From: Prorocentrum cordatum
Lineage: Eukaryota
Assembly: GCA_963575745.1 (NCBI GenBank)
Contig: CAUYUJ010000126.1
Coordinates: forward strand, 372,001-436,000
Direction of reading: 5' to 3'
DNA length: 64,000 nt
Shown here: positions 20,301 through 56,061 of the stretch, in pieces
How positions within the stretch are numbered: the stretch's first letter is position 1
Layout: the number at the start of each line of letters is the position of its first letter
Notes under the pieces: generated by a model
The model's database searches: none
The model's input: the letters and a program-made list of their open reading frames with translations, nothing else
Told to the model about the DNA's origin: nothing
Made by a program: the position numbers and the translations under genes

Positions 20301-23300
20301 AGTGCCGGGAGCGCACTGGGGGCCGGAGCATTACTTTCTGGGGGCGTTCTGGCCAAAGCAATAAAGAAACACGCTAAGGATGGCCCAAGACAGCCCAAGA
20401 GACTCAAAAGACGTCCCCAAGACATCCTCCACGAGGGCCCGAAAAAGCAAAAATTACTGGTTTTCAGGAGGTGTTTGAAGAATTTGGGCATTTGCTTCTT
20501 TTCGGCCTCCCGACAGCCCAAGACGGCCCAAGAGGCCCCCGAGATCGCCCCAAGATTTCCCCAAAGGCCTCCAAGATGACCATGGCCCAAGAAGCCTTCT
20601 CCTCCACGGCCCAGGCACGGTTGTGAGCTGGGCCTATGACCACTGGACCCGCCACCCCTTTCTGCCTGCAAAGTGGTGCACGGCGTGCCGAATCTGCACC
20701 TAGACAGACCTTCCTTTGAAACCTTCCAAACGGACCCCGAATGACTCCGGCTCAACCCGCAAGCCACCCGGAACCATGCGTTAAACCGGCTCGCATCGCC
20801 TTTCCCGCCCGAGATGGCCCCAAAACGGCCATATTGGCCCCATATGGCCTCCATGACGGTGCCAAGACGCCTCCAGGAAGGCCAAGGTGAACCCCAAGGA
20901 GGGCCCACGATGCCACAAAGACGGCCAAAAATGACTCCAACACCACGCGAATGACTGTATGAAATAAACTTGTCCGTCGCCGGGGGCGCTGCCCCAAGGC
21001 GCCTGTAAAGTTTGTACCTTGACGCGCCACCGTGTAAGGGTGTAAGCTTCCCAGCCGCCCTGGAACAGGCGCCCCCGGCAGCGAACAAATACATTGTATA
21101 CCTTTCTTCGCCCATGAAATCACGGCACAAGATGCCCTCCAGATGGCCCGCAAGGAGCTCCAAGAGGGCCCAAGACGAACCTCCAGGCGGGGTGGCGCTG
21201 TGGGGCGGCAGGGGGCGCCGTGTCGGCAGTGCACAACGCATACTGGACGCGGCACGACAGGGCTCCCCTCGGATGCAAAGCAGTTGACTGGTGTAGAACG
21301 CATGGTACCGAATGGTCCTCCTCCTCCTCCTCCTCCTCCTCCTCCCTCCCTCCCTTCCTTCTCCTATTCCGAGAGAGAGAGAGAGAGAAACAGAGAGAGA
21401 GAGAGACAACAAAAAACTCCGACGGTAGGACCCCGCATGTGAATATGTTTAACTTGCCTGGGGATCTCCTCCTCCTGCCCCTCCCTCTCCCACCTACTCC
21501 TGCCTCCTCCTTCTCCTCCTGCCTGCTCCTCCTCCTGCCTCAACCCCTGCCTCCTCCTCCTCCCCCCCACTCCATCATCGACACTGGCCCTCAGAAGACT
21601 CATCCTTTCCTCCTCCTCCTCCTCCTCCTCCTCCTCCTCCTCCTCCTCCTCCTCCTCTTTGTTCCCTATCCCTCTCCCTCCTCCTCCTCCTCCTCTGCCT
21701 CCTCCTCCTCCTCCTCCACTTCTCCTGTAAAGGAACTCCTCCAAGTCGCACCCCGAAGCCACTTTTTAGGGCGGGCGGGGCGTTTCGCCTGAGACTTTCT
21801 CAACACGTATGACTCTGAAGCTTAGCTTAACAAGCGACAACGGTTTCACAGATGGAGGGCGGGTGGTGTTCAAAATGAGGCTCACGCCTTAGCACCGCGC
21901 ACATTCGTTTTAAACCTCTGCCAGAATTTCACGGATTGAGGGCGGGTAATTTTCGATATGTGGTTCTCGCCTTAGCGCCGCGCGCGTTCGCTTTAAACAT
22001 TTGCAAGAGCTTCACGGATTGAGGGCGGGCGGTTTTCAAAATGTGGCTCTCGCCTCAGCGCCGCGCACGTTCGCTTTAAATACTTGCAAGAGCTTCACGG
22101 ATTGAGGGCGGGTCATTTTCAAAATGCGGCTCTCGCCTTAGCGCCGCGCGCATTCGCTTCAAACATTTGCAAGAGTGTCACGGATTGAGGGCGGGTCGTT
22201 TTCAAAATGTGGCTCTCGCCGTAGCGCCGCGCACATTCGTTTTAGCATGTGCAAGAGTGTCACGGATTGAGGGCGGGTCGTTTCCAAAAAGTTGCTCTCG
22301 CCGTAGCGCCGCGCACATTCGTTTTCAAACTTTGCAGGAGTGTCCCAGATTCCCTAGATCAGCGTACAACAAATTGTGTTTGAGAAGGATTCAGGATTAT
22401 GCGGGTGCAACAATTATTTTGACTCGCGGTGCTGAAGTCCCAGAATTGGCCCTCTTGCACGACTCCAGATCGTCAAGACGAAAAAGTCAGCTTGATACGT
22501 GGCGTTGAAATCCCGAGAACAGTTTGCTGGCATGCTTCAGGATCTTCAACCAGTTGTCTTCCAGTTCCGCTACTGGAAATGAACCATTGTGGGGGCCCGT
22601 GGAGAGGAAGCTTGAAGGGAGGGTTACTTCCAACATCGTTCATGACTCTTGGTTTTACACTGGTCCTCCTCCAACTCCTCCTGCTGCCTCCTCCTTATGC
22701 CTCCTGCCTCCTCCTGAGGCCTCCTGGGGCCATCTGGAGCCATCTGGGCCTCCCGGGACCTCGTGGGGCCTCCTAGGGCATTCCTCCTCCTCCTCATCAT
22801 CCTCCTCCTCATCCTCCTTCTCCTCCTCCTCCTCCTCCTCTCCTCCTCATCGTCCTGTTCCCCCTCTGCCTCCGCCTCCTCTTCCTCCTTCTCTTTCTCG
22901 TCCTGCATCCTCCTCCTCCTCCTCCGACCTCCTCCTCCTCCTCCTCCTCCTCCCTCCTCTTCCTTCCTCCTTCCCCCATCCTCCCCCTCCCCCTCCTACC
23001 CGCGCTCCTCCCCTCCCCCTCCACCCCTCCTCCTCTCCTCCCCCTCCCCCTTCCCTCCCCCTCCCCCTCGCCCCTCCCCCCCCCCCTCCGCCCTCCGCCC
23101 CTCCCCGGCCCTCCCCGGCCCCTCCCCCGCCCCTGCCTCCATCCCGTCCCCTCCCCCTCCCCCGGCTCCTTCCCCTTCCTCCTCCTCCAGCCTCCTCTCC
23201 TCCCCCGCCTCCTCCTCCTCCTCCTCCTCCTCCTCCCTCCTCCTCCTCCTCCTCCCTCTCCTCCTCCTCCTCCTCCTCCTCCTCCCCTCCTCCTCCTCCT

Positions 23301-26300
23301 CCTCCTCCTCCTCCTCCTCCTCCCTCCACCTCCTCCGCTCCTCCTCCTCTCCCCTCCTCCTCCTTCCTCCTTCCTCCTCCTCCCTCCCTCCTCCTCCTCC
23401 TCCTCCTCCTCCCCTCCTCCTCCTCCTCCTCCTCCTCCTCCTCCTCTCCTCCTCCTCCCGCCTCCTCCTCCTCCTCCTCCTCCTCCTCCGTCCTCCTCTC
23501 CCCCTCCCCCTCCCCGCTCCCCCTCCCCCTCCCCTCCCCCTCCTCCTCCTCCTCCTCCTCCTCCTCCTCCTCCTCCCTCTCCTCCTCCTCCTCCTCCTCC
23601 TCCTCCTCCACCTTCCTCCCTCACCTCCTCCTCCTCCTCGCCTCCTCCTCCTCCTCCCCTCCTCCTCTCCTCCTCTCCTCCGCCCCCCCGCCTCCTCCCC
23701 CTCCTCCTCACGCCTCCTCATCTCTTCTCCTCCTCCTCCTCCTCCTCCTCCTCCTCCTCCTCCCCCTCCTCCTCCTTAGTCAGCATCATCTTTGGTCGTT
23801 GTAAGGCACCCGTGCATCCTTCTGTACCCGTGAGGGGTTCGGGTCCTTACTTGGAAGGCCTCGATGTTGGGATTTGCGCCTCCGGGCCCTTCCTGGAAGA
23901 CCCAGAAGCACCCATCTTCCTCGATCCAAATAAACTTACAGCACCCCTAACTCCCTTGGTTACAGCGACGAGCGTGGGCTGGGGCGAACCTCATCCCCCA
24001 GCCACGCCGAGGAGGATGAGATTGGGACAACCCCGTCGATTCACGGTATCCCAGCAGCGAGAGCGATCCCCGAGCAGGAGTCCCCCCCCAAACGCGCAGA
24101 GAGGAGTAGTAAGGTTGTCGCAGTAGTTGCCAGGTTGGTAGTGCGCAAGCCATAAGTTATACCGAAGGACAATACAATGCGGTTGTGATGTGATGCTATG
24201 CGACCCGCATTCCAGCCTTCCAGCCCTTATGCCCTATGGCCTATAGGGCGGTCCTCCTCGAGGGCAGGCGTATGGGACACGCAGTCCCAGCTATGGGCCA
24301 TGGGACACACGGCCCTGATAAATTTAATGGGACGCACAGTCCCTGTTAGGGGACACACAGCCCTGGCAAATGGGACGCGCAATCCTGGCAAATGGGACGC
24401 GCAGTCTCGATTATGGGACACACAGATTCGGTTGATGGGACACGCAGTTCCCGCGCATTGGAGGATGTCCCATGCAAGTATGGAAGAGGCGTCTCTTGCC
24501 TGGTATTGCGTTATCTGGTCTCCTCCTCCTACTGCTCCTCTTCCTCCTCCTATTCCTCCTCCTCCTGCTTCTGGCCCCGTCCCCCAGCCACGTCCTGGAG
24601 GGGTAGCCAGGTAGGTTCATGCTTTGACATCTAGATTGGCCGAAAACGGTCCTCCAGCGTTGCGCTTGATCGAAGGGGGGGCAATCTTGTTAACATCTAG
24701 CTTGGCCGAAAACGATCGCCCAGCATTGCGTTTGAGTAGGTTAGCTCGCTCTGAAACAGTCATCCCACGAAGTGGGATAAATCATGCGCAGCCTCATTAG
24801 GACTGAGAGCGTCGCGATGGGGGTGCGGGAGTTATTGTGAAGAGTGTTCCGTAGCTGCTCGGTTCCCTCCTCCTCCCCTTCGCCCTTCCCCTATTCCTTC
24901 ACCTCCTCCTCCTTCTGGCCCCGTCTCCCAGCCACGTCCTGGAGGGGTAGCCAGGTAGGTTCATGCTTTGACATGTTGATAGTTCGCAGACCATTCTAGG
25001 CCGTAACAGGCCTGGGGTTTGAGCAGTAGCACGCGGGCCAGAGGTGGCCGCATCAGGCATGGGGGTGGGGGGCTTACCAGCCACCGTACAAAGGGCCCGC
25101 GTGTAGGCCATGGGTGGCCATAGGCCGTGCAGTGGAGGGCATTGGCGCGAGTGGTGCACAGTATGGGCGTGGTAGTAGGCGCATCTGAGTAAGTGTTGCA
25201 GCCATGGGAGTACGGGGATTGGCACGGGGCAGCTAAGTGTGCTTCACAGTCGTGGTGCGGCCCTCCTCCGGGAAGAGGCCAGGCAATTGTAAACCATCCT
25301 GCTTCACAGCCGTGGGGGGACCTTACTCGTGCATTCCAGGTTACATCCCACTTGAATCAGCATTGCATATCAAACAACATGCACCACGCAATGTAACATG
25401 ATTCAGGGTTGCAGATAATTCAGTGCGTTCTGATGTTTGAATCGGATTTGCAATTGAACATAGCATGCCACCATTGTTAGGGCACGAAGCGGTTGAAGAA
25501 GGGGCGGGTACCGCCACGGTTGTTCACACGTGATCGGATAGGGTATCGCGTATCGAGTGAATGATCATCCATGGCGATCGTGCGCCTAGCGCCTGTACAG
25601 CGTAGGTCCACCACTGCTGCGGTGCCCCTTGGTTGGTTAGAGCATGCGGACGGTGTTGAAAGTGTTTGGGGGGATTACGTCATGAGGCTACGCTTAACAA
25701 AATGGGGTCCCCCCTGCTCGAAAGGGGGGGAACTTTGCTAACATCTAGATTGGCCGAAAACGGTCCTCCAGCGTTGCGCTTGATCGAAGGGGGGGGCAAT
25801 CTTGTTAACATCTAGCTTGGCCGAAAACGATCGCCCAGCATTGCGTTTGAGTAGGTTAGCTATGAAACAGTCATCCCACGAAGTGGGATAAATCATGCGC
25901 AGCCTCATTAGGACTGAGAGCGTCGCGATGGGGGTGCGGGAGTTATTGTGAAGAGTGTTCCGTAGCTGCTCGGTTCCCTCCTCCTCCCCTTCGCCCTTCC
26001 CCTATTCCTTCACCTCCTCCTCCTTCTGGCCCCGTCTCCCAGCCACGTCCTGGAGGGGTAGCCAGGAAGGTTCATGCTTTGACATGTTGATAGTTCGCAG
26101 ACCATTCTAGGCCGTAACAGGCCTGGGGTTTGTCCAGTAGCACGCGGGCCAGAAAAGGCCGCATCAGGCATGGGGGCGGGGGGCTTACCAGCCACCGTAC
26201 AAAGGGCCCGCGTGTAGGCCATGGGTGGCCATAGGCCGTGCAGTGGAGGGCATTGGCGCGAGTGGTGCACAGTATAGGCGTGGTAGTAGGCGCATCTGAA

Positions 26301-29300
26301 TAAGTGTTGCAGCCATGGGAGTACGGGGATTGGCACGGGGCAGCTAATTGTGCTTCACAGTCGTGGTGCGGCCCTCCTCCGGGAAGAGGCCAGGCCGTTG
26401 TAAACCATCCTGGTTCACAGCCTTGGGGGGACCTTACTCATGCATTCCAGGTTACATCCCACTTGAATTAGCATTGCATGTCAAACAGATTGCACCACGC
26501 AAGGTAGCATGATGTATGTTGCAGGTACTTTAGTGCTTTCTGATGTTTGAGTTGGAATTCGAATTCAACATAGCATGTTACCACTGATAGGGCACGAAGC
26601 GGTAAAACATCACCCGTGCCTGAAACGACAGCCATGACAATTCTCCTCCTCCTCCTCCTCCTCCTCCTCCTCCTCCTCCTCCTCCTCCTCCTGCCCCCCC
26701 TTCCTCCCCGCCGCCTCCTGCCTCCTCCCCCCTCCCCCTCCCCGCGCCCATCCCCTCCCCGCCCTCCCCCGGCCCCGCACCCGGCCCAATCCCTCCCCAC
26801 CCCCATCCCTTCTCCACCCCTCCTCCTCCTCCTCCTCCTCCTCCTCCTCCTCCTCCTCCTCCCCCTCCCTCACTCCCTCCCTCCCTCCCTCCCTCCCGTC
26901 CCTCCCTCCCCCCGCCTCCCTCCTCCCTCCTCCCTCCTCCCTCCTCCCTCCTCCCTCCTCCCTCCATCCCTCCTCCCTCCTCTCTTCCTCTCCTCCTCCC
27001 ACCTCCTCGTCCCTCTTCCTCCTCCCTCCGTCCCTCTCCTCCTCCCTCCTCCCTCCTCCCACCTCCTCCCTCCTCCCCCTCCCTCCTCCCTCTCCCTCCT
27101 CACTCTCCCTCCTCGCCTCCTCCACCTCCCTCCTCCTCTCCTCCCATCCTCCCTCCTCCCTCCTCCTTCCTCCCTCCTCCCACCTCCCTCCTCACCCCTC
27201 GGTTTGGGCACCGTGGTGGCTCACCGATTATGATATCTCTCCGGGAGGGGCAGAGGATATTTGTCGGAGTATGTCAGATTCGCATGGTTTTGTGGGATGA
27301 CATGCACATGGCTGCCGCAGATGTGTTTCACAGTGTGGATCCCCAGGAGCGGAAAACTATGTTAAACGTTGATGATCAAACTTGTTAATATTGGGGGTTT
27401 GGGCACATGCGCGCCTAATTGTTGGGCTTCCAAGAGAAACGGCTTTTGAAACTGATGAACGAAGTACACGGAAATTACGATGGAAGGCGGCGGCCATGTG
27501 CGTTTCCCCTTAGAAATACGTGTGATGGTAAAGGGGGGCACACACCGTAGCGTCCGTGCTCAAGTGGGGAACGCGCGACGGGGTGGGCACATGCCGCGGC
27601 CTCGGTGGCGGCGAGGTGTGCTTTCGCCAGCGCCAGAGGTTATCGAGGTCTGCATCTCTGAGGAGGAGCAACAGGAGTCATCGTCTTCTGCAGCTNNNNN
27701 NNNNNNNNNNNNNNNNNNNNNNNNNNNNNNNNNNNNNNNNNNNNNNNNNNNNNNNNNNNNNNNNNNNNNNNNNNNNNNNNNNNNNNNNNNNNNNNTCCTC
27801 CTCCTCCTCCTCCTCCTCCTCCTCCTCCTAGTGGCTCCTAGTGACTCCGTAGCTGTCCGTTACCGCTGAGCGATAAGACAGCCAAAAAAACAGTGCAGAG
27901 GCAAGGACCGACATGGGTCCAGGCGGTGGCGGACGACTTGCCCGTCTGAACATTCCACCTGAGAGGAGCAGACCTCCCGAAGCTCGCCCCTGAGCTGGGG
28001 TCCACTCCGTTCCTGAGCATTCTGAGACTATTCGCTGCGTCACGGTTGCGAGGACCGCCTTGGCACACAGACCCCAGGAGCTGGGACCGAGCGGACCCGA
28101 ACGCTCCGCAGCCCGCGCACCAGGCCACACGACCCCCTCCGAGCCAGAGCCTGTGGCTCCGATGCGCAGTCCTCGCAACCCCCGGCGGACCGCCGCAAGG
28201 CGTAAAAGCTATGTGTCCTCGTGCGGACTCTCTCGCCGCACGTCGCACACCTGTACTGCTTGCCCGTTTTCTCGATCAAGTGCCCGTTGGGCTCGGGAAT
28301 TAACTGCAAAACCTGGGGCTTGGGCCTTCTAGGCCTCCGTGCCCGCGCAACATCAGGGAAACCTTTCACCGAAAGGTCGTTCATGACCTCGGCTATCAAC
28401 CAGGCCGATTGTTTGACTAAGCTCGCATTCTGCTTGAGCTGAGCCTTAATCAGAGGGTTCGTGGGATGAGCTCGGGCCCCTAGCTTGGCCAGCTCATCGG
28501 CCCGCCTGTTGCCCCTCCACCCCCACTCACACACTCCTTGCCTGCGGGCCTGACCGAGGGAGAGGTGAGACCTCACCCTACGTACCGAAATCAGATCACG
28601 TCCCAGAACCTCCGATGAACTGAACACCTCCTTCCACAGCTGTGAATACGCAACATCCTCCAAGTTCTGTTCTGGGCCGAACCCCCAAATATCCTCTACC
28701 ATCTTGCATCCCGCAATCACATCAAGCCCCATGCGGTCCCGCCAGGCGCAACGCCACGAGTAGAGCGCGCACCTCCCCCGCCCCGGCAAGCTGCACGACA
28801 TGTGGCAGGGGGCCGCACGCCGAGCCGACAATGCGCCCGCCCTGCGCGACCGCGACCACCGCCCACCCCGCACGCGCCAGGGAGGGATGATCTTGATCAT
28901 ATCCTGATCCGTCGAGGCACACTCGTCTGTCGAGCACCCCGTTCGGCGGGGCCACGCCCCACTTGTAACCCGCTTGCTAGCACGGCGTGGGCCGCGCCCA
29001 CCCCACGCAGGGGAACAGCGCCCTCGTGTGGAGCGCCTCCGTGCCTGGTACAACTGGTGTGTCCAGCAGCTCCTGAACATCGGGATCTCGAATTCGGGGT
29101 TGATGGGCAGGGCAGCGAAACCTGTGCAAAGCTGAACCGACCTCCTCTTGGCACAGCAAACACCGGTTGTCTACGACTCCCCTGTCCTGGCACAGCTTAT
29201 CATGCGTCTGGTGCCCGCCTGCGACCGCGCCCGCGAGACCCGCTGCCGCCTGCCACCTGCCCTTGGCCCTGAGGTCCCTGAGCACATCGATGACGGGTCC

Positions 29301-32300
29301 CAGCAGTGGCCCCTCGTCGAGGCCTTCGACGCGCCCACCCCCAAGACTCCTGGCCAAGGCTCCCGAACGCACCTTTCCAGAACCATCTTCAGAGAGCGTC
29401 CTCCAAGATATTCCAAGTCGATCTCTAACCCAGAGTTGGTCACGAACAGGTTCCAGGCCCTCGGTTCCAGGCCTATCCGTCTGAGGGTCAAGACGACCGC
29501 ACCTGCAGGACCTCGCACCTGGCTCCAGTCGAAGTCCTGCTTGTCTCTGAAAAAATGAAAGCTCTGCTGCATCGCCTTGGGCTCCGCCCACCTGCTTGCT
29601 CCGTACTGCCTGCCCCCGCATGGGCAGCGGCAACAAATTCGAGTCGAAAGCGGGGTCTCCCTTGGGCTCCTCGCTGAGCAAGAATTCCAGGGTCCTGCCC
29701 CTGCCCTCGGGGGCCCCAAAAACTGCAGCTCGCACCGCACTCCTGATCTGCTGGAGTTTCGAAGTGGCCACCCCATTCACTCTAGCTCCGTAGGTAGTCG
29801 AGGCCAAGCCTCCCGCTCTCGCAACCCTCATCATTCCTCTCCTGGAACTCCTGAGCCCGCGGATCCGACCCTGACGCCCCTTGAGGCGCCTCAGCCTAGC
29901 CTGCAGCACTTTGGACCCGCGGGTACCCGTTTTAGCCATAGTTTGGTCGCACCCCAAATTCCTTCCTGAAAGCGCCCCTTCGAAGTTCCACTTCCGAAGC
30001 TTTAGCCTGACCTCCACCTGCGACGAATGTCCTGGCGACTGTGATGTGATATCGTCGACGACGTTGTATATGCCTATGCTACCGAAATGCTCTCTGGTCG
30101 CGTCCAGCGGGTCTAACAACAGGCAACTGAGCCAGCTGGCGGCTTCTCCGCAGCCTGCTAGGATATCTTGGTCGACCTCCGCAATCAATATCAACGCGCA
30201 CACTCCTAAGATACTGATGATCCTCTTGCCGCGGCACAGAGACAGCTTCAAGCGGAGTCGAATGAGGTCATATTTGCGTTTGACCACAGCTCGAGCCAGA
30301 AGGGAATGATTCACCTTCTCGTAGGCCTTGGTTAAATCCACCAGGCCGCATGCCGAACAACCTCCTGCGCTGAGATGATGTTCGACCACTAGACTCTGCC
30401 CCAATACCGCTCTCTCGCAACTTCTACCCGGAATTCCATACATGTAAGGCCTTCTGACAGAGGCCTCCCGCGCACGGATCTCGGGTCGATCTAACTTCGA
30501 GAAGACTCTGATTGGGGCGGGCAACAGGCCTATCGGTCGAAAACCTCCTTCAGGCTTACCAAACATCGCGAGGACCGTGGCCAGCATCAAGGCGGGATAC
30601 GTCCCAAGACACCCCATCCACACCCAGAGCTCTCCCAACACCTCGAGGATCCCATCCGTGGCCTTGTCGAGGTCCCTGGGCCTGAGCATGTCGATCCCGC
30701 ACGCCGTGAACCTCTTAAACCTCCCGGCAGCAGCCCTGATCTCGACGGGGGACTTCGGGGGGCCCACGGGGTGTTTGAGCTCGCAACCTTGTTCCTGCGC
30801 CTGCTTACCTAACTCGCTAGTGAGGTGCTCGATGGGATCGGGAAGACTCCTAGCAGCCTCTGGAGGGGTCCAATGCCTAAGCCAATAACCGTACAGGTCG
30901 TCCACCTTCTCCTGCGGGCCCATCGGTACTCTCGGGGCATCAGACTTCTCGGCGCCTGCTGGGGCCTCGGGAATCCAACCTATGGGAACTTGGCTGCACT
31001 TGTGTGCTTGGCCCCCTTCCGTTGGCCACTGCTTGCTTGACCCACTCGTGCCGCTGCCTGGACCGCTCTGCGCCAAGCGATATCTCCAGTGACTGCGAAA
31101 AACGACCAGCTTCTTCGCTCCAGCGTCGAAGCAGTACCACATCTGCACTCAACAACTCCCTGGTGGAAGGCCTCCAGCCTTCCCCATCTTGCTGCTCTCG
31201 AAGCTGGTGAGGGCCCCGTCGAATCTGTCTCAGGATCCCCGAAGTGTTAGCCTTCTCCCACCCCGAAGCGCTACTCCTGAGGTAAACCAACTCCTGGGGC
31301 CAAATCTCGACTCTCTTCCATCCTCTGCTCCGAGTGCAGCCTACAGGGTACTTGCCTCCAGAGGTCTTCAAGGCTGGCACCATCCTAAACTCGGGTTCCT
31401 TGGACCTCCCCAAATAATACTTCTGATCCGTGACCCGATGGTACTCGCCAGAGCTCCACATCTAGAGCCCCAATAAACTGCTCATATCAACGATCCAGAG
31501 CCTCCTTTCCGCCTTGCTGCCTTGCCTGTGCTAGCAGCTGGCGGTAGTCGCGGGGCTCGGGCCTCGGGCCCACGACAACCTCATTGGGAAAGGCGGCAGG
31601 CTTCTCGAGCACCCTGACCTCGTGCTCCATGGGCTTGCCCTTAAACTGCACGATGGCAGGCCAGTGCGGCTTGGTGGTTGCCTTCCTATTGAGATGGCAA
31701 GAGTGCACGTTCGCCGCAAGACCTGCTGACATCACAAAGTAGTCGATCGTCCTCCAGACCTTGGCTGTCGACTTACATGTGCACGTGGTGGGATGTACAA
31801 CCTGCCCCCCAAGTTTACCAGCCTACCCCATCTCCTTGACACGCTCAGGAGAAACATCCCCGTCGCCTCCCAAGATGAACGGAAGCCCCCAGCTGTGCAA
31901 ACGTTCACCTAGACGACTAAGGATTTGACCCCCCTCAGGTCCTAGTGGATCGGCATCAGGAAGGTATACCGAGCCCGGGATAAGCCCTCCTGGTGCGAAA
32001 GTATTGATACAGCGCCAGGACTGGCGATGAGGTGCCGGCAGCTCTCGGACTGATGTTAGCGGCAGCCCCATGCCGATGTGCCTCTTGCACGCTACTACAA
32101 CTCCAGACGACAGCCCACCTGCGTCCGTAGCTATCGATGGCGAAACACTCGCATGCCATCCTAGACCTCGCAATGTTTGCTCACGCTCCTGCTGCTCTCT
32201 CGACTCGACAGTGATCTCCTGCAGAATAGCTACGCTAGACTGGCATTCCTCCCGAGATACTGCTTCGCCGACTTCCAGGATGTTGTGTTGCACGTTTCTA

Positions 32301-34637
32301 CCGAGAACCCCCGCCCTGGTCAGCCCTGGAAACTGAGCCTGCCTGCTGACGCTTAAGCTTCCTAGGATGGGTCTTACTTAGATAAAACCTCTGCGGCAAA
32401 GTTGCCCCCCAGGCAGGGCAATTCGGCACCTGCCTGGGGCAGAAGAAAGGCGGGCGACCAAGCGGCTGCAGCGGCATGGTCAGCGGCGGAGGGGGGAAGA
32501 ATGTCCCTGGTGGTGCGCCAAAAGGAGAACCCTCCCGCACCCGACGTGCGGCCCAGGCCTCCGCGCCACCTGACTCGGACGAGCCCCGTCCCCACACCCC
32601 ACCCCGCTACCCACCCGACCGTCCGCCCCCTGCGGATGTCTGGCCTGCGGCTGCGCCTCCAGCGCTGCCTGCAAAGCCCTTGCCTCCTGCTGGCGCGGCC
32701 TTGCCACCGCGGGCCAGGGCCGCCCGAGCGACCTGGCGCACGTCGCTCGGCCGCTGCTGGCCATCAGCAGCAGCACTAGTAGATGCTGGCACAGCGTCAG
32801 CCGCGGCGCCAGGCGAAGGCTGTGGGCCTCCCGCCTCGGCGCCCTCGCCCCCCCCCGCGGTGGGGGCGCCTCCGCCCTGTCCGCCAGGTGGCACGCCGTC
32901 GGCCGCCACGGCCGTCTTGCGCTTCTTGGCGGAGAGCCGCTCGACGTGCTCCTCGTGCTCCTTGGTGAGGTTCTCCGCAAACGACTTCGCGGAGCCAAAC
33001 AGCTTCTGCGCCAGCTCCGCGACCCCACGCTGCATATTCTCCTTCCTCTCGGCAGCCTGCTTCTGGCCCTCCTCGGTGGCCTCGTACAGCTTCGGGTCGA
33101 CCAGGCCGAAGAGCGTCTCACACTCCCCCAGGTCGAAGCAGCTGAGGTCGCCCTCCAACAGCTTGGACAACGGCACGCGAGGATGGGGGGTCGCTCGGCG
33201 CTCCCACCACGTTCGTGTGCAGGTGGCCCAGCAGCTCCTTGCACTGGCCGTCCGCCACCTCGAGATCGCTGCTGAGCGACTCCACCAACTGCGTCTGCTA
33301 CTGCAGCGCCGCATGCATGCGCTCGAACTTGGTGACCTCATGCTTGAGCCTCCCCATCGAGCTGCAGGACCCGCTGGTGGGCCTGCTGGGCCTGGGTATG
33401 CAGCGACGCCGTCAGCGGCTCCATGGCGAGCCGCTTCTTGTACTCTCGGATCCCCGTGTACTTGTCCACCATGGTTTGGTCCCCGATCTTGCTCGCGAGC
33501 TCGACCAAGTTGTTGACCTCCTCGATGGACAGCTCCAGCTCCTTGCTCTTGATGCCAGGCGGCGGCTGCAAACCCGCCGCCCGCGGTGCCAGCCCTGGTG
33601 GGCTGTCGTTGTCTGTCCCGACGGAATCGGCGCTCTCGTCTGACGCAGCCTCATCCCATGACTTCTTGCAACGCTTGCAGAACCACTGCGACCAGGGCGT
33701 CTTTTTGCACGCACAGTGCTGGCAGCGCCACGTATGAACGTGTTTGCCTCGTGGCCTGCTTGCTTCACGCTCACGACCTTCTGCTGCTTCTGCTGCGCGT
33801 CCTTTGCCCCCGTCATGTTGCCCAAACTGTCTCCACGCCATTGCACGCACGGGCGAAAGAATCCTGGTCTTGTCTGTGACGGGAAAGTCATACGCCTGAA
33901 ACTGGTAATCGTGAAGAATGGCCCTCACCCTTAGCAGGGCTGCTGGTCGAGGGTCGTGCGGGTCACTCGACCACCTTGGGCCAGAACGGCCTTGAGCCAA
34001 ATGGCTTGAGCCAACATGGCTACGGACCTCCTCCTCCAACTCCTCCTCCTCCTCCTCCTCCTCCTCCTCCTTCCTCCTCCTCCTCCTCCACCTCCTCTCC
34101 TCCTCCTCTCCTCTCCTCCTCCTCCTCCTCCTCCTCCTCCTCCTCCTCCTCCTCCTCCTCTTGCTCCTCCACCTGCCTCCTCCTCTCTCCTCCTCCTCCT
34201 CCTCCTCCTCTCCTCATCCTCCTCCTCCTCCTCCTCCTCTCCTCCTCCTCCTCCTCCTCTCCTCCTCCTCCTCCTCCTCCTCCTCCTCCTCCTCTCCTCC
34301 TCCTCCTCATCCTCCTCCTCCTCCTCCTCCTCCTCCTCCTCCTCCTCCTCCTCCTCCTCCTCTTCCTCCTCCTCCTCCCTCCTCCTCCTCCTCCTCCTCC
34401 TCCTCCTCCCTCCTCTCCTCCTGCTCCTCCTGCTCCTCCTGCTCCTCCTCCTCCTCCTCCTCCTCCTCCTCCTCTCCTCCCCTCCTCCTCCTCCTCCTCC
34501 TTATCATCATCATCATCATCATCATCATCCATCATCATCATCATCATCTCATCATCATCATCATCATCATCTCATCATCATCATCATCATCATCATCATC
34601 ACTATCATCATCATCATCATCATCAGCATCATCATCG

Positions 34638-34700
<63 letters not shown>

Positions 34701-34764
34701 ATCATATCATCATCATCATATCATCATCATCATCATCATCAGCATCACATCATCATCATCATCA

Positions 34765-34801
<37 letters not shown>

Positions 34802-34855
34802 CACCACCCACCACCACCACACCACCACCACCACCACCACCACCACCCACCACCC

Positions 34856-34910
<55 letters not shown>

Positions 34911-34917
34911 GCATCAG

Positions 34918-34964
<47 letters not shown>

Positions 34965-36056
34965 CCCTCCTCCTCGTCCTCGTCCTCGTCCTCGTCCTCT
35001 TCCTCGTTCACGTCCTCGTCCTCGTCCTCGTCCTCAACCTCGTCGTCGTCCTCGTCCTCGTCCTCGTCTTCCTCGTCGTCCTCGTTCGGGCGGCGCGCCG
35101 AGACAGACGGCCCGCCGCGCAAGTGGGTGCGGTTCCTCGTCGTCCTCGTCCTCGTCCCCGTCCTCGTTCTCGTCCTCGTCCTCCTCCTCCTCCTCCTCCT
35201 CCTCCTCCTCCTCCTCCTCCTCCTCCTCCTCCTCATCCTCCTCCTCCTCCTCTTCTTATTAATATTCTTATTATTAGTATTATTATTGTTCTTCTTCGTT
35301 TTCTCATTCTTCTGTTTCTTCTTCTTCTTCTTACTATTATTCTTCCTCATATTATTATTATTATTATTATTGTTATTATTGTTATTGTTCGTCTTCTTCT
35401 TCTTCCTCCTCTTCTTCCTCTTCCTCCTCCTCCTCCTCCTCCTGCTCCTGCTCCTGCTCCTCCTCCTCCTCCTCCTCCTCCTCCTCCTCCTCCTCCTCCT
35501 CCTCCTCCTCGTGCGGAAAACGACCTGGAACAAACGCAAGACGTGCCCGCTACGCGCCGGAGGACGACCCAAAGGAAACGCGCACCAGCGGACGACACGG
35601 AGAAAGCACGTGAGGTGCTGGCCTCATAGGGAGGGGGCTGCGGCCTGAGACTTCCTCGCAATTCACTCATAGACGAGGCTCCCGCCGTATACTTCCTCTA
35701 TAATCAGGTTTCAGGAGCCCCAAAAAGACGACGGTTACAGGGAACCGATGACCCGCCTCGGATTAGAACATGAAGTGCGGGCCCCATGGAGAGGGGGTTC
35801 CCGCCTGAGACTTTCTCGCAATTCACTCACAGACAAGTCTCCCGCCATATACTTCCTCCGTATTCAGGCCTCAGGCGCCCAAAAGTGACGACACTTACAG
35901 GAGGCCGATGACCCGCCTCGGATTCGAACATGAAGTGCGGGCCCCATCGGGAGGGGGCTCACGCCTGAAACTCCCTCGCAACTCACTCACACACGAGGCT
36001 CCCGCCCGAGACGACACACATGCGAGTGATGATCATGATGATGTGAGTGATGATGC

Positions 36057-36103
<47 letters not shown>

Positions 36104-38172
36104 GTGATGATGATCCGGCTCCAACAAGGAGGGTCGCCACCGAATCCCAGTCGCCCACCTCAAACTAGATTACGTCGGGGTGCCTCGGCCTGGCGATCGC
36201 GAGCGGTCGCGGAGCGGGGGAGGCGGGCCGAAATCGGCCTGTGCTCCACTTTTGATGGGTGGAGCCCTCGCGTCATTCTCTTCGAAAGCTCCTTAACTCT
36301 CTCTGAGGGGGGTGACCTAGGCACGGCTCGACTAGGCCCTTCGCTCGCGTGGACGACGTGTGGGCCACGCGACCCCCCCCCCCCCCGGGCGGCACAACGC
36401 GTGTGAACGGTCGAAACGTAGTTGCCACCAGGGGGGGAACTCTTCCCAGAGACTGGCAGCCGAACTCGGTTGCCCCCCTGGTGGTCCAATGCTGTTGCTG
36501 GTGCCTCCGCCCTTTGGGGCCTGCTGCTGCTGCTTCTGCACAGGCTGCTGCTCCTCCTCACTCCTGCCCCCCCCTCCCCCGCTCGCGGCCGCGGCGGCAG
36601 CTCCTGCCATCAGCGCCGCGACGGCGAAGCCTGGCCTCCCCGCCTGACCCTCCCCTCCAGAGGGCGGCGGGCAAACACTGGCTGGGATCGGGGTGCCTCG
36701 GGAGGAGCAGGCGAAGTAACTCCAGGAGACAACCCCGGAATCTGACACAATGGTGGAGCCGTGTCGCTGGCGTGGCCTGGCCGCACATGCATCACACGAC
36801 GCGTGGCTCCTCTGCTTGCAATCTGGCACCTGGTGGCGGCCAGGCCAGGAGGGTTGAACCCGTCCTCGGCCCTGAGCCAACAATCTCCCTCCTGCGCCGC
36901 CGTCCCAGCCCACCGACCCAAGCTCATTCCCAACTCATCGGCGATAGCGGCAGCTCCAGCGGGCGCGGGCCAAAAGGGGTGACAACTCGCGCCTTCTTTT
37001 GCACGGGCATCTGCACAACTGTTACCTTGACGCTGCCAGAGAGTGATGACGCCACGGTGCACCTCATTCATGGAAGCGTGTCCTTTCACTTTGGTTATCT
37101 GGATATGCTCACAGCCAACGTCGCCCGCGCGACGCCAGGAAAACTGCCAGATCTCACGGTGTGGTCTGTTACATCCTGTGGACCACTCCTCGCCACCCTC
37201 CCAACCGACAAGCAAGTCACTGAACAAATTGACTGGGGGCAAAGCATGCGCCAGCGCCTCAGCCGCGGCCAGCAACTCGCCTGCTCCCGACTCCTGGGGC
37301 CAGGGCCACGGCACTGGGCCGTAGATGCTGGAGAGCTCAGCGCCCGTGGGGTCGGTGGCGCAAGCTGCCCAGCCCGCGCGCGCCATGATGTGGTCCTGGA
37401 CCCTGGAGGCGGAGCCGTCCAAGAACACCTCGCCATGTAGGGGTTCTCCAGCTCTTGGCCCGACTGTGCGGACCATGCGCACGGCGAGCGGCGGGGGGTG
37501 GTCGCACTGGGCACCTCGACCACAGGGCGTGCTCGTCGCCGGCGTCGTGAGTGCCCCCAGAGCTCAGGAAGTGGTCGGGTTCGGGTCGTCTACCTTCCAC
37601 TGCCTGCGCATGCCGTCCAGCGCGGGGCAGGCCCAAGCCAGGGGCCTGAGGGTCCCCTTCGCCTCGCAGTCCACAGGGCAGCGCCCTGAGCTCGCCAGCG
37701 GCGGGGAGGCCTCGGAACGCCGCTGCACAGGCCAGAGGCAGCCGACGACGGCATTCCTGGCCGAGAACCAGCGTGCCGTCCATGCTGGGCTGCCCTGCGC
37801 CCTGCAGAGTCTGCGGCGCAGGCCCCTCACGGCGGCGTCCCGCCAGAGCTTCCTGATGAAGGCGGCCTGGACCTCTCGGCCGAGGGCGTGCTTGTCGATG
37901 GCCCCAAGGTCGATGGGGCGCTGCAGGTCGTCCGTCCAGCGCCTGATGTGGTCGGCCCTCCCGCCCAGACATAGGGCGGCAAGGACCGTGGCCGCTGCGG
38001 GGCCCCTCGCCACCAGGCCCTCGGTCCCCGCTGAGGCCAGGCGGCCGCGGGCCGCCGCGAAGGCGGAGCCGAGGGCCCGCCTGTCGGCATCCAGCGCCAG
38101 CTGCACCCCCTTGGCACATGCCACGATGGGTGTCACGATGTGGTCGTATAGGGGGTCGTCGCATGGCCTCTC

Positions 38173-38229
<57 letters not shown>

Positions 38230-38497
38230 AATGGAGGTGATGATTGACATGATGATTGAGATGATGATTGAGATGATGATTGAGATGATGATGGTGATGA
38301 TGATGATGACGATGATGATGATGATGATGAGGCCAGGGTTGATGATGGTGTGTGAGTGATTGAGTGCGTGATGGTGCGATCGTGTGTGGTGAGAAAGTGA
38401 CTGATGACGATGGTGCGAATGATTGAGTGAATGAGTATGCGAAGGGAGAAGAAGCTGAAGGTGTTATGATAATGATGCTGATGATGATGATGATGAC

Positions 38498-38560
<63 letters not shown>

Positions 38561-39990: not shown

Positions 39991-40784
39991 TACACATCGC
40001 ACAAGAACTATACCGTAGTGACATTATAAACTAGTTATGGCTGCGAAGAAACCGGGCATCTGCGGCACGTGCAGCGATAATAATAGCCGCAAGATGGAGA
40101 GACCCAGAAAAAGTTCCAAGCAGCGCACAGCGCGAGAAGGGAATTCGTGCCGAGGTCCAGGCTTCCTCGCCACAAGCTCGGCCCAGACGGGTACGGCGTC
40201 GAATTCGAGAGAGTGCTCGGAGGCCCACGGCAGATCTAAAGCGTCGTATTACTTCGAGCATGCGCGTTTTAGAACAGCCGAGGGCGACCAGAATGCACAT
40301 GGAACGCAGAGCGGGGAGGGGAGCGCTGAGCGAGGGCCGCAATCAGGACGGCCTCCTCCCCTCCCTGAAACTCAAACCAGGGGCCAGGGCAAAGACACCC
40401 TTCTGCTCGCATCTGGAAGGATGAAGAGGAAGAGCACATGTGGAAGACGAAGGCAGGGACAGGTATGAGAGAGAGGTATATATATATACATAGATGTATA
40501 TATAGACATGTGGCACGTTTGTGTTTGAAGCAGGAAGACACCATGACGGCGGCATCGGAGGTGGAGAAGGGGAAGCTGGGGCGGCGCCGCCAGGGCGTGC
40601 CTAAGAGAAGGGGACGAGGAGAAGGATAGCTGCTGGGAGTGAACTGCAATAGCGAGGTCGCACTCGAGCGAAAGTGGGGTTGTCACACCTTGCGATGTGT
40701 GTACCAGGGCCCCCCAGGAATCCTCAGGAGGCCCGACTTGGTTACCCGAAGAGACTCCAGGAGGCCCTAGGATTGTGAGTGTTG

Positions 40785-41141
40785 TGTGGGTGTGGGTGTG
40801 GGTGTGGGTGTGGGTGTGGGTGTGGGTGTGGGTGTGGGTGTGTGGGTGTGTGGGTGTGTGGGTGTGTGGGTGTGTGGGTGTGTGGGTGTGGGTGTGTGGG
40901 TGTGTGGGTGTGTGGGTGTGTGGGTGTGTGGGTGTGTGGGTGTGTGGGTGTGTGGGTGTGTGGGTGTGTGGGTGTGTGGGTGTGTGGGTGTGTGGGTGTG
41001 TGGGTGTGTGGGTGTGTGGGTGTGTGGGTGTGTGGGTGTGTGGGTGTGTGGGTGTGTGGGTGTGTGGTGTGTGTGGTGTGTGTGGTGTGTGTGGTGTGTG
41101 TGGTGTGTGTGTGTGTGTGTGGTGTGTGTGTGTTGTGTGTG

Positions 41142-41180
<39 letters not shown>

Positions 41181-41227
41181 GTGTGTGTTGTGTGTGTTGT
41201 GTGTGTGTTGTGTGTGTGTTGTGTGTG

Positions 41228-41270
<43 letters not shown>

Positions 41271-41329
41271 GTGTGTGTGTTTGTGTGTGTTGTGTGTGTT
41301 GTGTGTGTTGTGTGTGTTGTGTTGTGTTG

Positions 41330-41364
<35 letters not shown>

Positions 41365-41440
41365 GTTGTGTGTGTGTGTGTTTGTGTGTTTGTGTGTGTT
41401 GTGTGTGTTGTGTGTGTGTGTGTTGTGTGTGTTGTGTGTG

Positions 41441-41473
<33 letters not shown>

Positions 41474-41542
41474 GTGTGTGTTGTTGTGTTGTGTGTGTTG
41501 TTGTGTGTGTGTGTGTGTTGTGTGTGTTGTGTGTTGTGTGTG

Positions 41543-47972: not shown

Positions 47973-47988
47973 GCCATTTTGGCTCAAG
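47973..47988 (+). other. Relict spliced leader upstream of the helicase ORF
   Basis: GCCATTTTGGCTCAAG, an exact match to the 3' 16 nt of the dinoflagellate SL, ~70 nt before ATG 48057. Confidence 0.85.
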
Positions 47989-48056
47989 GCGTCTGTCGCT
48001 CCTGCGGGCAACAGGCGCGCTGACGTTAACGCCCTCCCCTGCAAGGCTTCCAAGCG

Positions 48057-54265: not shown

Positions 54266-55318
54266 AAAAATTAGCCTGACGAAAGACCCAACCATACGTA
54301 GTTGTGAATACCGCAATTGTGGATATATATTCCTCGGTGGCGCTCCCTATGGGGCCACGAAACGTGTGAGGGGTGTGCCGAAATGGGGGTGGAACCGCAT
54401 GCGAGCGCAGCCACTGGGGCGTTCGGTGGAGCTCCCTGTGGGGCCACGAAACGTGTGAGGGGTGTGCCGAAAAGAGGGGTGGAACCGCATGCGAGCGCAG
54501 ACGCTGGGGCCTTCGGTGGAGCTCTCTATGGGGCCACGAAACGTGTGAGGGGTGTGCCGAAATGTGGGGGAAGATCCGCATGCGAGCGAAGCCACTGGGG
54601 CGGTCGGTGGAGCTCCCTATGGGGCCACGAAACGTGTGAGGGGTGTGCGAGAATGGGGGGTGGAACCGCATGCGAGCGCAGCCACTGGGGCGTTCGGTGG
54701 AGCTCCCTATGGATCCACGAAACGTGTGAGGGGTGAGCCGAAATGTGGGGTGGAACCGCATGCGAGCGCAGCCACTGGGGCGTTCGGTGGAGCTCCCCGT
54801 GGGGCCACGAAACGTGTGAGGGGTGTGCGGAAAAGGGGGGTGGAACCGCATGCGAGCGCAGACGCTGGGGCCTTCGGTGGAGCTCTCTATGGGGCCACGA
54901 AACGTGTGAGGGGTGTGCCGAAATGGGGGTGGGTGGGAGTGGAACCGCATGCGAGCGCAGCCACTGGGGCGTTCGGTGGAGCCCCCTATGGGGCCACGAA
55001 GCGAGTGAGGGGTGTGCAAGAATGGAGGGTGGAACCGCATGCGAGCGCAGCCACTGGGGCCTTCGGTGGAGCTCCTTATGGGGCCACGAAACGTATGAGG
55101 GGTGTGCCGAAATGAGGGGTGGAACCGCATGCGAGCGCAGCCACTGGGGCGTTCGGTGGAGCTCCCTATGGGGCCACGAAACGTGTGAGGGGTGTGCGAG
55201 AATGGGGGGTGGAACCGCATGCGAGCGCAGCCACTGGGGCCTTCGGTGGAGCTCCCTTTGGGGCCACGAAACGTGTGAGGGGTGTGCCGAAATGGGTGCA
55301 GGGGACGCATGCTGATGG

Positions 55319-55386
<68 letters not shown>

Positions 55387-55725: not shown

Positions 55726-56061
55726 TGAGATCATATGTTGTCATTCCTCCCAGACCTCTGTCCGAGTTCTCTTTGCAAGGTTGTAATGGTAGTTCCCCTC
55801 GCCTGTGTGCAGCGTTGCGCCAGCGAGGAAGGGGCGGGAAGAGGCGAGGACAGACAGGCAGCTTGAACGTTCATGTCAGACCCCACCAAAAGGTGAATAT
55901 TGGGGGGGTGCGGCCATACATATATATATATATATATACAGAGAGAGAAGGCGCGCCTATGTATATTTATATGCATATATGTACATATATATATATATAG
56001 ATGCATAGCGAGAGAGGGACATGTATAGAGACAGAGAGAAAAAGAGAGAGAGAGAGAGCGC

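What the first reader, a model, noticed from the sequence alone, without database searches (positions are those of the whole stretch)
27830..34026. Full-length LINE whose 5' end is a spliced leader plus two relict leaders: a possibly promoter-less, trans-splicing-dependent retrotransposon
Seen: the element begins exactly at a 22-nt dinoflagellate SL, directly abutting the (TCC)n flank, followed by two progressively decayed SL relics. The first relic starts right after the SL-internal AG (CCGTAG|CCAT). The element lies in an intron in the same orientation as the host ESF2 gene. Known: tandem relict SLs mark repeated cycles of trans-splicing and retroposition in dinoflagellate genes. Inference: this LINE may solve the 5'-end/promoter problem by riding host read-through transcription and being re-capped by trans-splicing at its own SL-derived AG, with at least three recorded cycles.
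Basis: partly seen in the sequence, partly recalled or inferred. Interest (0 to 1): 0.85.

Follow-up and report, generated by a model that had tools for sequence, protein, structure and literature searches.

The report
LINE retrotransposon capped by spliced-leader relics
A dead but end-to-end copy of a dinoflagellate LINE retrotransposon starts with a genomic copy of the spliced leader plus two decayed leader relics, which suggests that these elements are copied from trans-spliced RNA over repeated cycles.

Summary
The core observation holds, on the minus strand. The element's 5' end (34026) is a 22-nt DinoSL with one mismatch. Two truncated, increasingly decayed relics follow it, and a (GGA)n/(TCC)n microsatellite lies directly upstream.

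Downstream lie an ORF1-like region, then AP-endonuclease, reverse transcriptase and RNase H. This is the full layout of a large LINE family. The copy itself is inactive: it has at least four frameshifts and one in-frame stop.

A metagenome scan for the SL|relic junction found two further LINEs with SL/relic arrays at their 5' ends (L029, L065). They come from other sources, L065 has an intact 1049-aa ORF2, and my RT profile did not detect it. The arrangement is therefore probably general, not a one-off.

Not verified:
- the ESF2 host gene, the intron location and the shared orientation;
- any SL-LINE transcript (no RNA run was listed);
- dependence on host read-through transcription, which remains an inference.

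This copy has no pyrimidine tract upstream of its acceptor AG.

Verdict: partly supported. It is a new variant of two known things, dinoflagellate mRNA recycling and co-transcribed LINEs. Interest is moderate to high.

The parts
34027..35500 (.). Upstream flank (relative to the minus-strand element). A long, purine-rich (on minus) microsatellite tract of (GGA)n/(GAG)n and related triplets, i.e. (TCC)n on plus. It abuts SL position 1.
   Evidence: the 40 nt upstream are 5% pyrimidine
34005..34026 (-). Unit 1: full 22-nt DinoSL, TCCGTAGCCATGTTGGCTCAAG, with 1 mismatch (T>G in the T-run).
   Evidence: only match in the window, 0 expected. The same CCATGTTGG variant is quoted as a non-canonical DinoSL in Polarella (PMC7245778, passage).
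33991..34004 (-). Unit 2: relict SL CCATTTGGCTCAAG. It starts right after the SL-internal AG and has one T deleted.
33975..33990 (-). Unit 3: older relict SL GCCGTTCTGGCCCAAG, 12 of 15 to CCATTTTGGCTCAAG.
33842..33974 (-). 5' UTR between the SL array and the first long-ORF ATG (33841).
   Evidence: Several diverged X1 contigs cover 33704-33780, just inside the ORF1 start, so that region is repeated.
32610..33841 (-). ORF1-like region: CxxC...CxxC zinc-finger-like motif, predicted coiled-coil-like stretch, Gly/Ala-rich tail. Split over two frames (frameshift near 33340). No Pfam family.
   Evidence: diverged contig copies in X1/X2 at 33106-33649
31391..32377 (-). ORF2 N-terminal AP-endonuclease region, with an in-frame TAG at 31823-31825.
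   Evidence: tblastn of relatives' endonuclease regions (P0007, P0008, P0009, P0013, P0017); Pfam Exo_endo_phos E=0.036
29402..31016 (-). Reverse transcriptase domain, with the VDD of the catalytic motif retained.
   Evidence: invariant V364 D365 D366
28376..29207 (-). RNase H region, in a different frame from the RT.
   Evidence: P0001, P0008, P0013, P0017, P0018; relatives carry Pfam RNase_H
27830..28275 (-). C-terminal ORF2 segment (a third frame) and a very short 3' end, ...CACTAGGAGCCACT. There is no poly(A).
   Evidence: P0005 aa 1248-1327 of 1350 at 28197-27949
27696..27829 (.). 3' flank: (TCC)11 (27796-27829), then a 100-N assembly gap (27696-27795).

Best explanation
This is a degenerate but 5'-complete copy of an autonomous non-LTR retrotransposon. 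Its layout is ORF1, then AP-endonuclease-RT-RNase H, with no poly(A), like the published SymbioLINEs. It lies in a dinoflagellate genome, inserted in a (GGA)n/(TCC)n microsatellite.

Its 5' terminus is a DNA copy of the 22-nt spliced leader followed by two relict leaders. I infer the following mechanism:
1. The LINE pre-mRNA is SL trans-spliced like other dinoflagellate mRNAs.
2. Target-primed reverse transcription copies the RNA to its very 5' end, so the new copy begins with the SL.
3. In the next round, a transcript that starts upstream of the copy is trans-spliced at the AG inside the genomic SL. This leaves a CCAT...CAAG relic behind a fresh SL.

One full SL plus two relics therefore records three successive cycles of splicing and retrotransposition in this lineage.

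Trans-splicing discards everything upstream of the acceptor, so a daughter copy cannot inherit an upstream promoter. Continued propagation should then depend on transcription entering from the flank (polycistronic or read-through). In that model the SL defines and caps the 5' end, as HDV-like ribozymes do for R2 and L1Tc.

Shown: the anatomy, family membership, the decay gradient, and recurrence in two other LINEs.
Inferred: trans-splicing of the LINE RNA, and dependence on flanking transcription.
For: SL array:
- The array is highly non-random and abuts the flank at SL position 1.
- Units 2 and 3 lack the first 7 nt, as expected for splicing at the internal AG.
- Identity falls 5'>3': 21/22, 14/15, 12/15.

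Family and anatomy:
- The RT ORF has 1376 relatives at E<=1e-3 among 1.84 billion representatives.
- Of 9 relatives scanned, 6 have RVT_1, 4 have Exo_endo_phos and 2 have RNase_H.
- Relatives map collinearly over 32245-27949.
- The element has no LTRs or internal repeats.
- It is multi-copy and diverged in an independent DNA run: 237 X1 contig pieces, split 15/27/69/126 by likeness class.

Recurrence, among 119 metagenome loci fetched with the SL|relic junction:
- L029 has 83 nt of non-SL flank, a full SL with 1 mismatch and one relic. Then come a 673-aa ORF1-like frame and an ORF homologous to the pre-RT region of family members (E=6e-9 and 4.9e-6).
- L065 has a pyrimidine-rich flank ending in AG, three relics, ORF1 (458 aa) and an uninterrupted 1049-aa ORF2. 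The ORF2 carries Exo_endo_phos_2 and RVT_1 (E=5e-16).
- These are 2 of the 9 loci with at least 3 kb downstream of the SL.

Literature (passages read):
- The relic-SL recycling model (PMC3229502; PMC7245778).
- SymbioLINEs lack poly(A) and have conserved UTRs (PMC5890265).
- The GO term 'RNA-dependent DNA replication' is enriched among DinoSL-relict genes (PMC5585692).
Against: - No SL-LINE transcript was seen.
- No other 5'-complete copy of this same family could be examined. No genome is held, there is no other copy in the window, and the protein scans of metagenome and viral contigs were empty.
- Only 2 of 119 SL|relic loci are recognisably LINEs. None of the 71 transcript-like loci was recognised as one. 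These are short (median 1.2 kb downstream over all 119 loci), and ORF1s are too divergent to detect.
- This copy's upstream 40 nt are 5% pyrimidine, a poor 3' splice-site context.
- A lineage that always spliced at the first AG should accumulate many relics, yet only 1-3 are seen. Loss must therefore also occur, by a downstream acceptor or by 5' truncation. This is inferred, not shown.
- An internal or SL-derived promoter has not been excluded.
Confidence: 0.72

Rival explanations
1. The SL relic array is itself the element's portable core promoter. The TTTT/TTTG motif of DinoSL has been proposed to replace the TATA box for retrogenes. On this reading each retrotransposition hands the LINE a fresh promoter, so it is not promoter-less and does not need host read-through.
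For: The hypothesis is in print for retrogenes (PMC6050394 passages; PMC5585692 figure legend; PMC9651163 discussion). All three LINE arrays keep the T-run/TTGG core: CCATGTTGG, CCATTTGG and CCGTTCTGG here, and intact CCATTTTGG in L029 and L065.
Against: If initiation were downstream of the relic, the relic would not be in the RNA and could not be inherited. Yet here decayed older relics are inherited behind younger ones. The same counter-argument is raised in PMC6050394. Unit 1 of this copy has the T-run broken (CCATGTTGG).
Confidence: 0.15
2. This is a one-off chimera. During reverse transcription the LINE enzyme switched template from the LINE RNA 5' end to an SL-bearing RNA, or the LINE landed next to a pre-existing SL/relic array of a retrogene. 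On this reading the SL says nothing about how the family propagates.
For: LINE enzymes make 5' chimeras with small RNAs in mammals (abstract in a search listing only, 10.1101/2025.02.02.635956). Only one copy of this family could be inspected. SL relics occur elsewhere in the window (47974-47988).
Against: The units are truncated exactly at the splice AG and decay 5'>3'. This fits serial splicing, not template jumps, which would add whole SLs or SL RNA with its intron part. Two unrelated LINE loci show the same arrangement at the same place, upstream of ORF1. No host coding sequence lies between the array and ORF1.
Confidence: 0.08
3. The element is a site-specific LINE that inserts into SL RNA genes and borrows their promoter, as SLACS, CZAR and CRE do in trypanosomatids.
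For: An SL sequence lies directly at the element's 5' end.
Against: The full 22-nt exon is present, followed by relics, not a partial SL-gene exon. Upstream is about 1.5 kb of microsatellite, not an SL-gene promoter. No remainder of an SL gene follows the 3' end. The endonuclease is of the AP type. No Rfam family matches. The features I attribute to SLACS/CZAR are recalled, not checked in a call.
Confidence: 0.03

Closest known systems
Dinoflagellate mRNA recycling / retrogenes with relict DinoSL (Slamovits & Keeling 2008; Jaeckisch 2011; Song 2017)
   Same: A genomic DinoSL followed by relics truncated at the internal AG, with older relics more decayed. The inference of repeated cycles of trans-splicing, reverse transcription and reintegration is also the same (passages).
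   Different: Here the recycled RNA is that of an autonomous LINE encoding its own endonuclease, RT and RNase H, not a host gene. The cycles are the element's own replication. In my searches I found no paper that describes this. Song 2017 only reports that RT-related GO terms are enriched among relict-bearing genes.
SymbioLINE elements of Symbiodiniaceae (de Mendoza et al. 2018, PMC5890265)
   Same: ORF1 plus an ORF2 with Exo_endo_phos, RVT_1 and RNase_H. No poly(A) tail. Many diverged subfamilies (passages).
   Different: ORF1 here has no DNMT domain (no Pfam hit). That paper's main text and the 3 supplement files held mention no spliced leader at the 5' UTR. TSDs could not be read here.
Co-transcribed LINEs that cut out their own 5' end with an HDV-like ribozyme (R2; L1Tc/ingi)
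   Same: Functional analogy: the element RNA is released from a longer host co-transcript, and its exact 5' end is regenerated each cycle (PMC4035085 and PMC3185411, abstracts in a search listing).
   Different: No ribozyme was detected at the 5' end (Rfam). The host's SL trans-splicing would do the processing, and it adds a cap-bearing leader that is then copied into DNA. By contrast, L1Tc has an internal promoter (Pr77) and makes unspliced transcripts (PMC1874656 abstract).
SLACS / CZAR / CRE, SL-gene-specific LINEs of trypanosomatids (recalled, not checked in a call)
   Same: A LINE physically associated with spliced-leader sequence.
   Different: Those elements insert into SL RNA genes at a fixed site and use a restriction-like endonuclease. 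This element carries a retro-copied SL exon plus relics, lies in a microsatellite, and has an AP-type endonuclease.

Membership tests
Non-LTR retrotransposon (LINE), APE-RT-RNase H type | Reverse transcriptase domain with the catalytic (Y)xDD motif | tested here: met
   RVT_1 E=2.2e-4, below the Pfam cut-off. There are 1376 relatives at E<=1e-3, and RVT_1 occurs in 6 of 9 relatives scanned. V364 D365 D366 are invariant in a 16-sequence alignment.
Non-LTR retrotransposon (LINE), APE-RT-RNase H type | AP-type endonuclease N-terminal to the RT in the same ORF | tested here: met
   tblastn of relatives' endonuclease regions hits 32245-31391 at E 1e-13 to 1e-17. Pfam Exo_endo_phos is only E=0.036 on the window copy, but it is present in 4 of 9 relatives.
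Non-LTR retrotransposon (LINE), APE-RT-RNase H type | No long terminal repeats | tested here: met
   Self-blastn of the 6197-nt element gave no hits other than the identity match.
Non-LTR retrotransposon (LINE), APE-RT-RNase H type | Target-site duplication flanking the insertion | tested here: inconclusive
   Both flanks are (TCC)n, and the 3' flank runs into a 100-N gap. Any duplication is indistinguishable from the microsatellite.
Non-LTR retrotransposon (LINE), APE-RT-RNase H type | Intact ORFs (an active copy) | tested here: not met
   ORF2 is spread over 3 frames with an in-frame TAG at 31823-31825, and ORF1 over 2 frames. This bears on activity, not on family membership.
DinoSL-recycled retrocopy | Genomically encoded DinoSL at the 5' end of the transcribed unit | tested here: met
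   34026-34005, 21 of 22 identical, 0 matches expected by chance.
DinoSL-recycled retrocopy | Tandem relics that start after the SL-internal AG (CCAT...) and decay 5'>3' | tested here: met
   Units at 34004-33991 (14/15) and 33990-33975 (12/15).
DinoSL-recycled retrocopy | Transcripts carrying a new SL spliced onto the relic | not testable with these tools
   No run on record as RNA was listed. Only DNA contigs could be laid.
SL-gene-targeting LINEs (SLACS/CZAR type) | Insertion inside an SL RNA gene, with gene remnants on both sides | tested here: not met
   Microsatellite lies on both sides. There is no Rfam match.
Ribozyme-processed co-transcribed LINEs (R2, L1Tc) | HDV-like ribozyme at the element's 5' end | tested here: not met
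   An Rfam E-value scan of 33700-34200 gave only a chance snoRNA hit at E=3.

The most novel reading that the evidence does not exclude
Dinoflagellate LINEs as a class have given up an internal promoter. They replicate as passengers of host polycistronic transcription, and the host's own SL trans-splicing cuts out, caps and marks their RNA. The SL-internal AG that each copy carries is a built-in, self-renewing acceptor for the next round. The same machinery copies SL-capped RNA to its first base, so these LINEs, rather than the Ty1/copia elements favoured in print, would be the engine behind the genome-wide recycling that made about a fifth of dinoflagellate genes retrogenes.
Probability: 0.35. 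Interest if true: 0.8.

Novelty: new variant of a known kind. Interest (0 to 1): 0.6.

Why it matters
Two open questions in dinoflagellate genome biology are which retroelement performs the massive mRNA recycling, and how genes or elements that land without a promoter get expressed. The mini-review PMC6050394 says the first is unknown and leans towards Ty1/copia.

LINEs that carry SL relic arrays on their own 5' ends show that non-LTR machinery copies SL-capped RNA to its first base, and does so over repeated generations. This gives a concrete, countable marker for ranking active lineages: relic number, relic decay and flank context per copy.

It would also add a third solution to the LINE 5'-end problem, beside internal promoters and 5' ribozymes. 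Here host trans-splicing would regenerate the exact 5' end from a co-transcript.

Tried and rejected
- Whole-genome census: impossible, no genome is held for this window.
- Other copies in the window: none by blastn. The tblastx hits were low-complexity noise, except an RNase H fragment at about 37 kb.
- RNA evidence: no RNA holder listed. This says nothing about expression.
- Laying four DNA runs: it showed a multi-copy, diverged family. The contigs are short and break at the microsatellites, so it gave nothing about 5' ends. High-depth contigs at 33984-34014 are only SL-like k-mers from elsewhere.
The single RT protein then found no relative in metagenome contigs or viral contigs.
- SL|relic pattern in other collections: 0 in viral contigs. 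In genome contigs there was 1 locus, with the SL facing off the contig end, so it is unusable.
- A profile from A1 and a jackhmmer search with the ORF1s and ORF2s of L029 and L065 and the window ORF1 found no further LINE among the 119 loci.
- ESF2 host gene: Pfam scans of the 150 longest and 150 shorter flank ORFs (14-27.7 kb and 35.6-50 kb) gave no RRM or ESF2-like hit. Short dinoflagellate exons could easily escape this, so the result is 'cannot tell', not 'absent'. ORFs in 1-14 kb and 50-64 kb were listed but not scanned.
- SL RNA gene or 5' ribozyme: rejected.
- LTR element: rejected.
- Earlier findings of this scan: two look-ups returned nothing.


Full report
**1. What is in the sequence**

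- Read 5'>3' on minus, 34026-34005 is TCCGTAGCCATGTTGGCTCAAG. This is the 22-nt dinoflagellate spliced leader (DCCGTAGCCATTTTGGCTCAAG) with one T>G change.
- A search with the 21-nt core at up to 3 mismatches finds only this site in 64 kb. None is expected in 100 dinucleotide-preserving shuffles.
- It is followed without a gap by CCATTTGGCTCAAG (34004-33991). That is the SL from position 8 onward, starting just after the internal AG, with one T missing.
- Next comes GCCGTTCTGGCCCAAG (33990-33975), matching 12 of 15.
- The 15-nt relic motif has 13 matches in the window at up to 3 mismatches, against 1.81 expected. Three of them are these adjacent units.
- Identity thus falls 21/22, 14/15, 12/15 from 5' to 3'.
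- The same CCATGTTGG variant as unit 1 is quoted in the Polarella genome paper as a reported non-canonical DinoSL (PMC7245778, passage). The 'mismatch' may therefore be a leader variant rather than decay.

Flanks:
- Immediately upstream of SL position 1 is a purine-rich triplet microsatellite ((GGA)n and related) that runs for about 1.5 kb.
- The 3' end (...CACTAGGAGCCACT at 27830) abuts (AGG)11 on minus, and then a 100-N assembly gap at 27696-27795.
- The element therefore sits in a (GGA)n/(TCC)n tract. No target-site duplication can be read.

**2. What the body is**

Pfam is weak on this copy:
- RVT_1 scores E=2.2e-4, below the curated cut-off.
- Exo_endo_phos scores E=0.036.

Relatives make the identity clear:
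- The 723-aa RT frame has 1376 relatives at E<=1e-3, 456 at 1e-10 and 20 at 1e-30, among 1.84 billion representatives.
- Of 9 relatives scanned, 6 carry RVT_1, 4 carry Exo_endo_phos and 2 carry RNase_H.
- Long relatives map collinearly on the minus strand:

| Segment | Window coordinates |
|---|---|
| Endonuclease | 32245-31391 |
| RT | 31016-29402 |
| RNase H | 29207-28376 |
| C-terminal piece (residues 1248-1327 of a 1350-aa relative) | 28197-27949 |

- The VDD of the catalytic motif is invariant in a 16-sequence alignment.
- There are no terminal or internal repeats.
- Between the SL array and ORF2 lies an ORF1-like region (33841 to about 32610). It has a CxxC...CxxC motif and no Pfam family.

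The layout is therefore complete from leader to 3' end. It matches the APE-RT-RNase H, poly(A)-less SymbioLINE type (PMC5890265, passages).

The copy is dead:
- ORF1 is split over two frames.
- ORF2 is split over three frames.
- There is an in-frame TAG at 31823-31825.

In an independent DNA run, 237 contig pieces lay on the element. By likeness they split into 15 at 99% or more, 27 at 95-99%, 69 at 90-95% and 126 below 90%. The family is therefore multi-copy and diverged.

**3. Is the SL array an accident of this copy?**

I could not inspect other copies of the same family:
- No genome is held.
- No second copy lies in the window.
- The protein-based scans of metagenome and viral contigs were empty.

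I therefore asked the converse question: among DNA that carries an exact SL|relic junction, are there LINEs? In 71 of them the junction sits at a contig end, as in transcripts. Two loci are LINEs.

L029 (3188 nt):
- It has 83 nt of non-SL flank.
- Then TCCGTAGCAATTTTGGCTCAAG (1 mismatch) and one exact relic.
- Then a 673-aa ORF1-like frame.
- Then an ORF homologous to the pre-RT region of family members (tblastn E=6e-9; phmmer E=4.9e-6; Pfam Exo_endo_phos_2 only E=0.06). The contig ends there.

L065 (4889 nt):
- It reads ...GTTTTCTTCGTCGTCGTCCACACCAG | CCATTTTGGCTCAAG | CCATTTTGGCTCAAG | ACATTTGGCTCAAG.
- Then a 458-aa ORF1.
- After one stop codon, in the same frame, comes an uninterrupted 1049-aa ORF2 with Exo_endo_phos_2 and RVT_1 (E=5e-16).
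- My RT profile for the window's family does not hit it, so it is at least a distant LINE and probably from another clade.

These are 2 of the 9 loci that extend at least 3 kb downstream of the junction. No further LINE was recognised among the 119. Most loci are too short to reach ORF2, and ORF1s are too divergent to be recognised.

Leader arrays on LINE 5' ends therefore recur in different LINE lineages and different source organisms.

**4. Mechanism**

The published recycling model explains the array directly (passages in PMC3229502, and PMC7245778):
1. An SL-capped RNA is reverse-transcribed and integrated.
2. The new locus is transcribed from upstream.
3. A new SL is spliced at the AG inside the genomic SL.
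4. This leaves a CCAT...CAAG relic. Older relics have had more time to decay.

For a LINE this is simply its own replication cycle. A full SL plus two relics records three cycles.

One consequence follows by logic rather than by data. Sequence upstream of the acceptor never enters the mature RNA. A daughter copy therefore cannot inherit an upstream promoter and must be transcribed from whatever lies upstream of its landing site.

That is how R2 and L1Tc behave with their 5' HDV-like ribozymes (abstracts in the listing). Here no ribozyme or SL-RNA family is detectable, and the host's trans-splicing would do the job.

Only 1-3 units are seen in each of the three elements. Gain of relics must therefore be balanced by loss, through splicing at a downstream AG or small 5' truncations. 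L065 lacks the first 7 nt of its first unit. This balance is my inference.

**5.

- The ESF2 host gene, the intron location and the shared orientation could not be verified. Pfam scans of 300 flank ORFs found no RRM-like hit. Short exons could escape such a scan.
- What I did find upstream on the same strand is a second LINE fragment, an RNase H part at 38136-36988.
- The only other relic-bearing unit is 14 kb away on the opposite strand. It has an exact CCATTTTGGCTCAAG at 47974-47988, about 70 nt before the ATG of a 478-aa ORF.
- The 40 nt upstream of this copy's acceptor are 5% pyrimidine, against 55% and 62% in L029 and L065. This copy is badly placed to be spliced again.
- It is a fossil that records the process. 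It is not evidence that this locus is riding a host transcript.

**6. Rivals**

- *SL-derived TTTT-box promoter.* This idea is in print for retrogenes (PMC6050394). It would make the array a portable promoter. It predicts initiation downstream of the relic, which fits poorly with older relics being inherited behind younger ones.
- *One-off template switch, or landing beside a pre-existing array.* This is made unlikely by the exact truncation at AG, the decay gradient and the two independent LINEs.
- *SL-gene-targeting element of the SLACS/CZAR kind* (features recalled, not checked). This is contradicted by the flanks and by the AP-type endonuclease.

**7. Novelty**

Five full-text searches and passages from eleven papers turned up no description of LINEs whose genomic 5' ends carry DinoSL arrays.

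- The closest hint is that the GO term 'RNA-dependent DNA replication' is enriched among relict-bearing genes (PMC5585692).
- The SymbioLINE paper mentions no leader in its main text or in the three supplement files held.
- The retrogene mini-review states that the retroelement responsible for retroposition is unknown, and it favours Ty1/copia.
- Supplements of the other papers were not searched and might list RT genes with relics.

I rate this a new variant of known kinds, a LINE that is itself subject to SL recycling. The interest is real because it makes two open questions countable: which machinery recycles mRNAs, and how promoter-less insertions are expressed.

Noticed in passing
window 47974-47988 (+) and ORF 48030-49463 (+): An exact relict SL (CCATTTTGGCTCAAG) lies between a 9-nt inverted repeat (GACAGACGC...GCGTCTGTC), about 70 nt upstream of the ATG of an uninterrupted 478-aa ORF with no Pfam family. 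It is probably a retrogene, on the strand opposite to the LINE.
   Followed up: partly
window 36988-38136 (-): [quoted passage not shown] It covers the post-RT and RNase H part (Pfam RNase_H E=4.9e-4; tblastn to P0005 and P0001).
   Followed up: partly
window 54300-60300 (also 61081-62655 inverted): A large array of an 89-90-bp satellite. On the minus strand, some units contain CCATTTTGGCACACC or CCATTTTGGCGCACC, sharing the 10-nt core of the spliced leader. This gave 6 of the 13 relic-motif matches at 3 mismatches. Whether it is SL-derived or coincidental is unknown.
   Followed up: no
window 34027-35600; 21300-23700; 36000-36120; 38100-38600; 40760-41500; 63175-63970: The window is exceptionally rich in long triplet and dinucleotide microsatellites: (TCC)n, (ATC/GAT)n, (TG)n and (GA)n. 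Assembly gaps of 100 N at 27696-27795 and 63422-63521 both sit in such tracts.
   Followed up: no
L005 (9323 nt), SL|relic at 3918-3942 (+), ORF 4857-6821: This metagenome contig has an SL|relic junction followed by a 655-aa ORF. The ORF combines a DnaJ domain with an RNase H/RVT_3 domain, an unusual pairing. An 833-aa ORF with no family follows.
   Followed up: no
L065 3370-3372: In this intact-looking LINE, ORF1 (458 aa) and ORF2 (1049 aa) are in the same frame and separated by a single stop codon. This suggests ORF2 is expressed by read-through or reinitiation.
   Followed up: no
window 34005-34026 (-): The single difference from canonical DinoSL (CCATGTTGG) is the same variant as a non-canonical DinoSL reported from Polarella (PMC7245778 passage). 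It could be a minor leader variant rather than a mutation.
   Followed up: no
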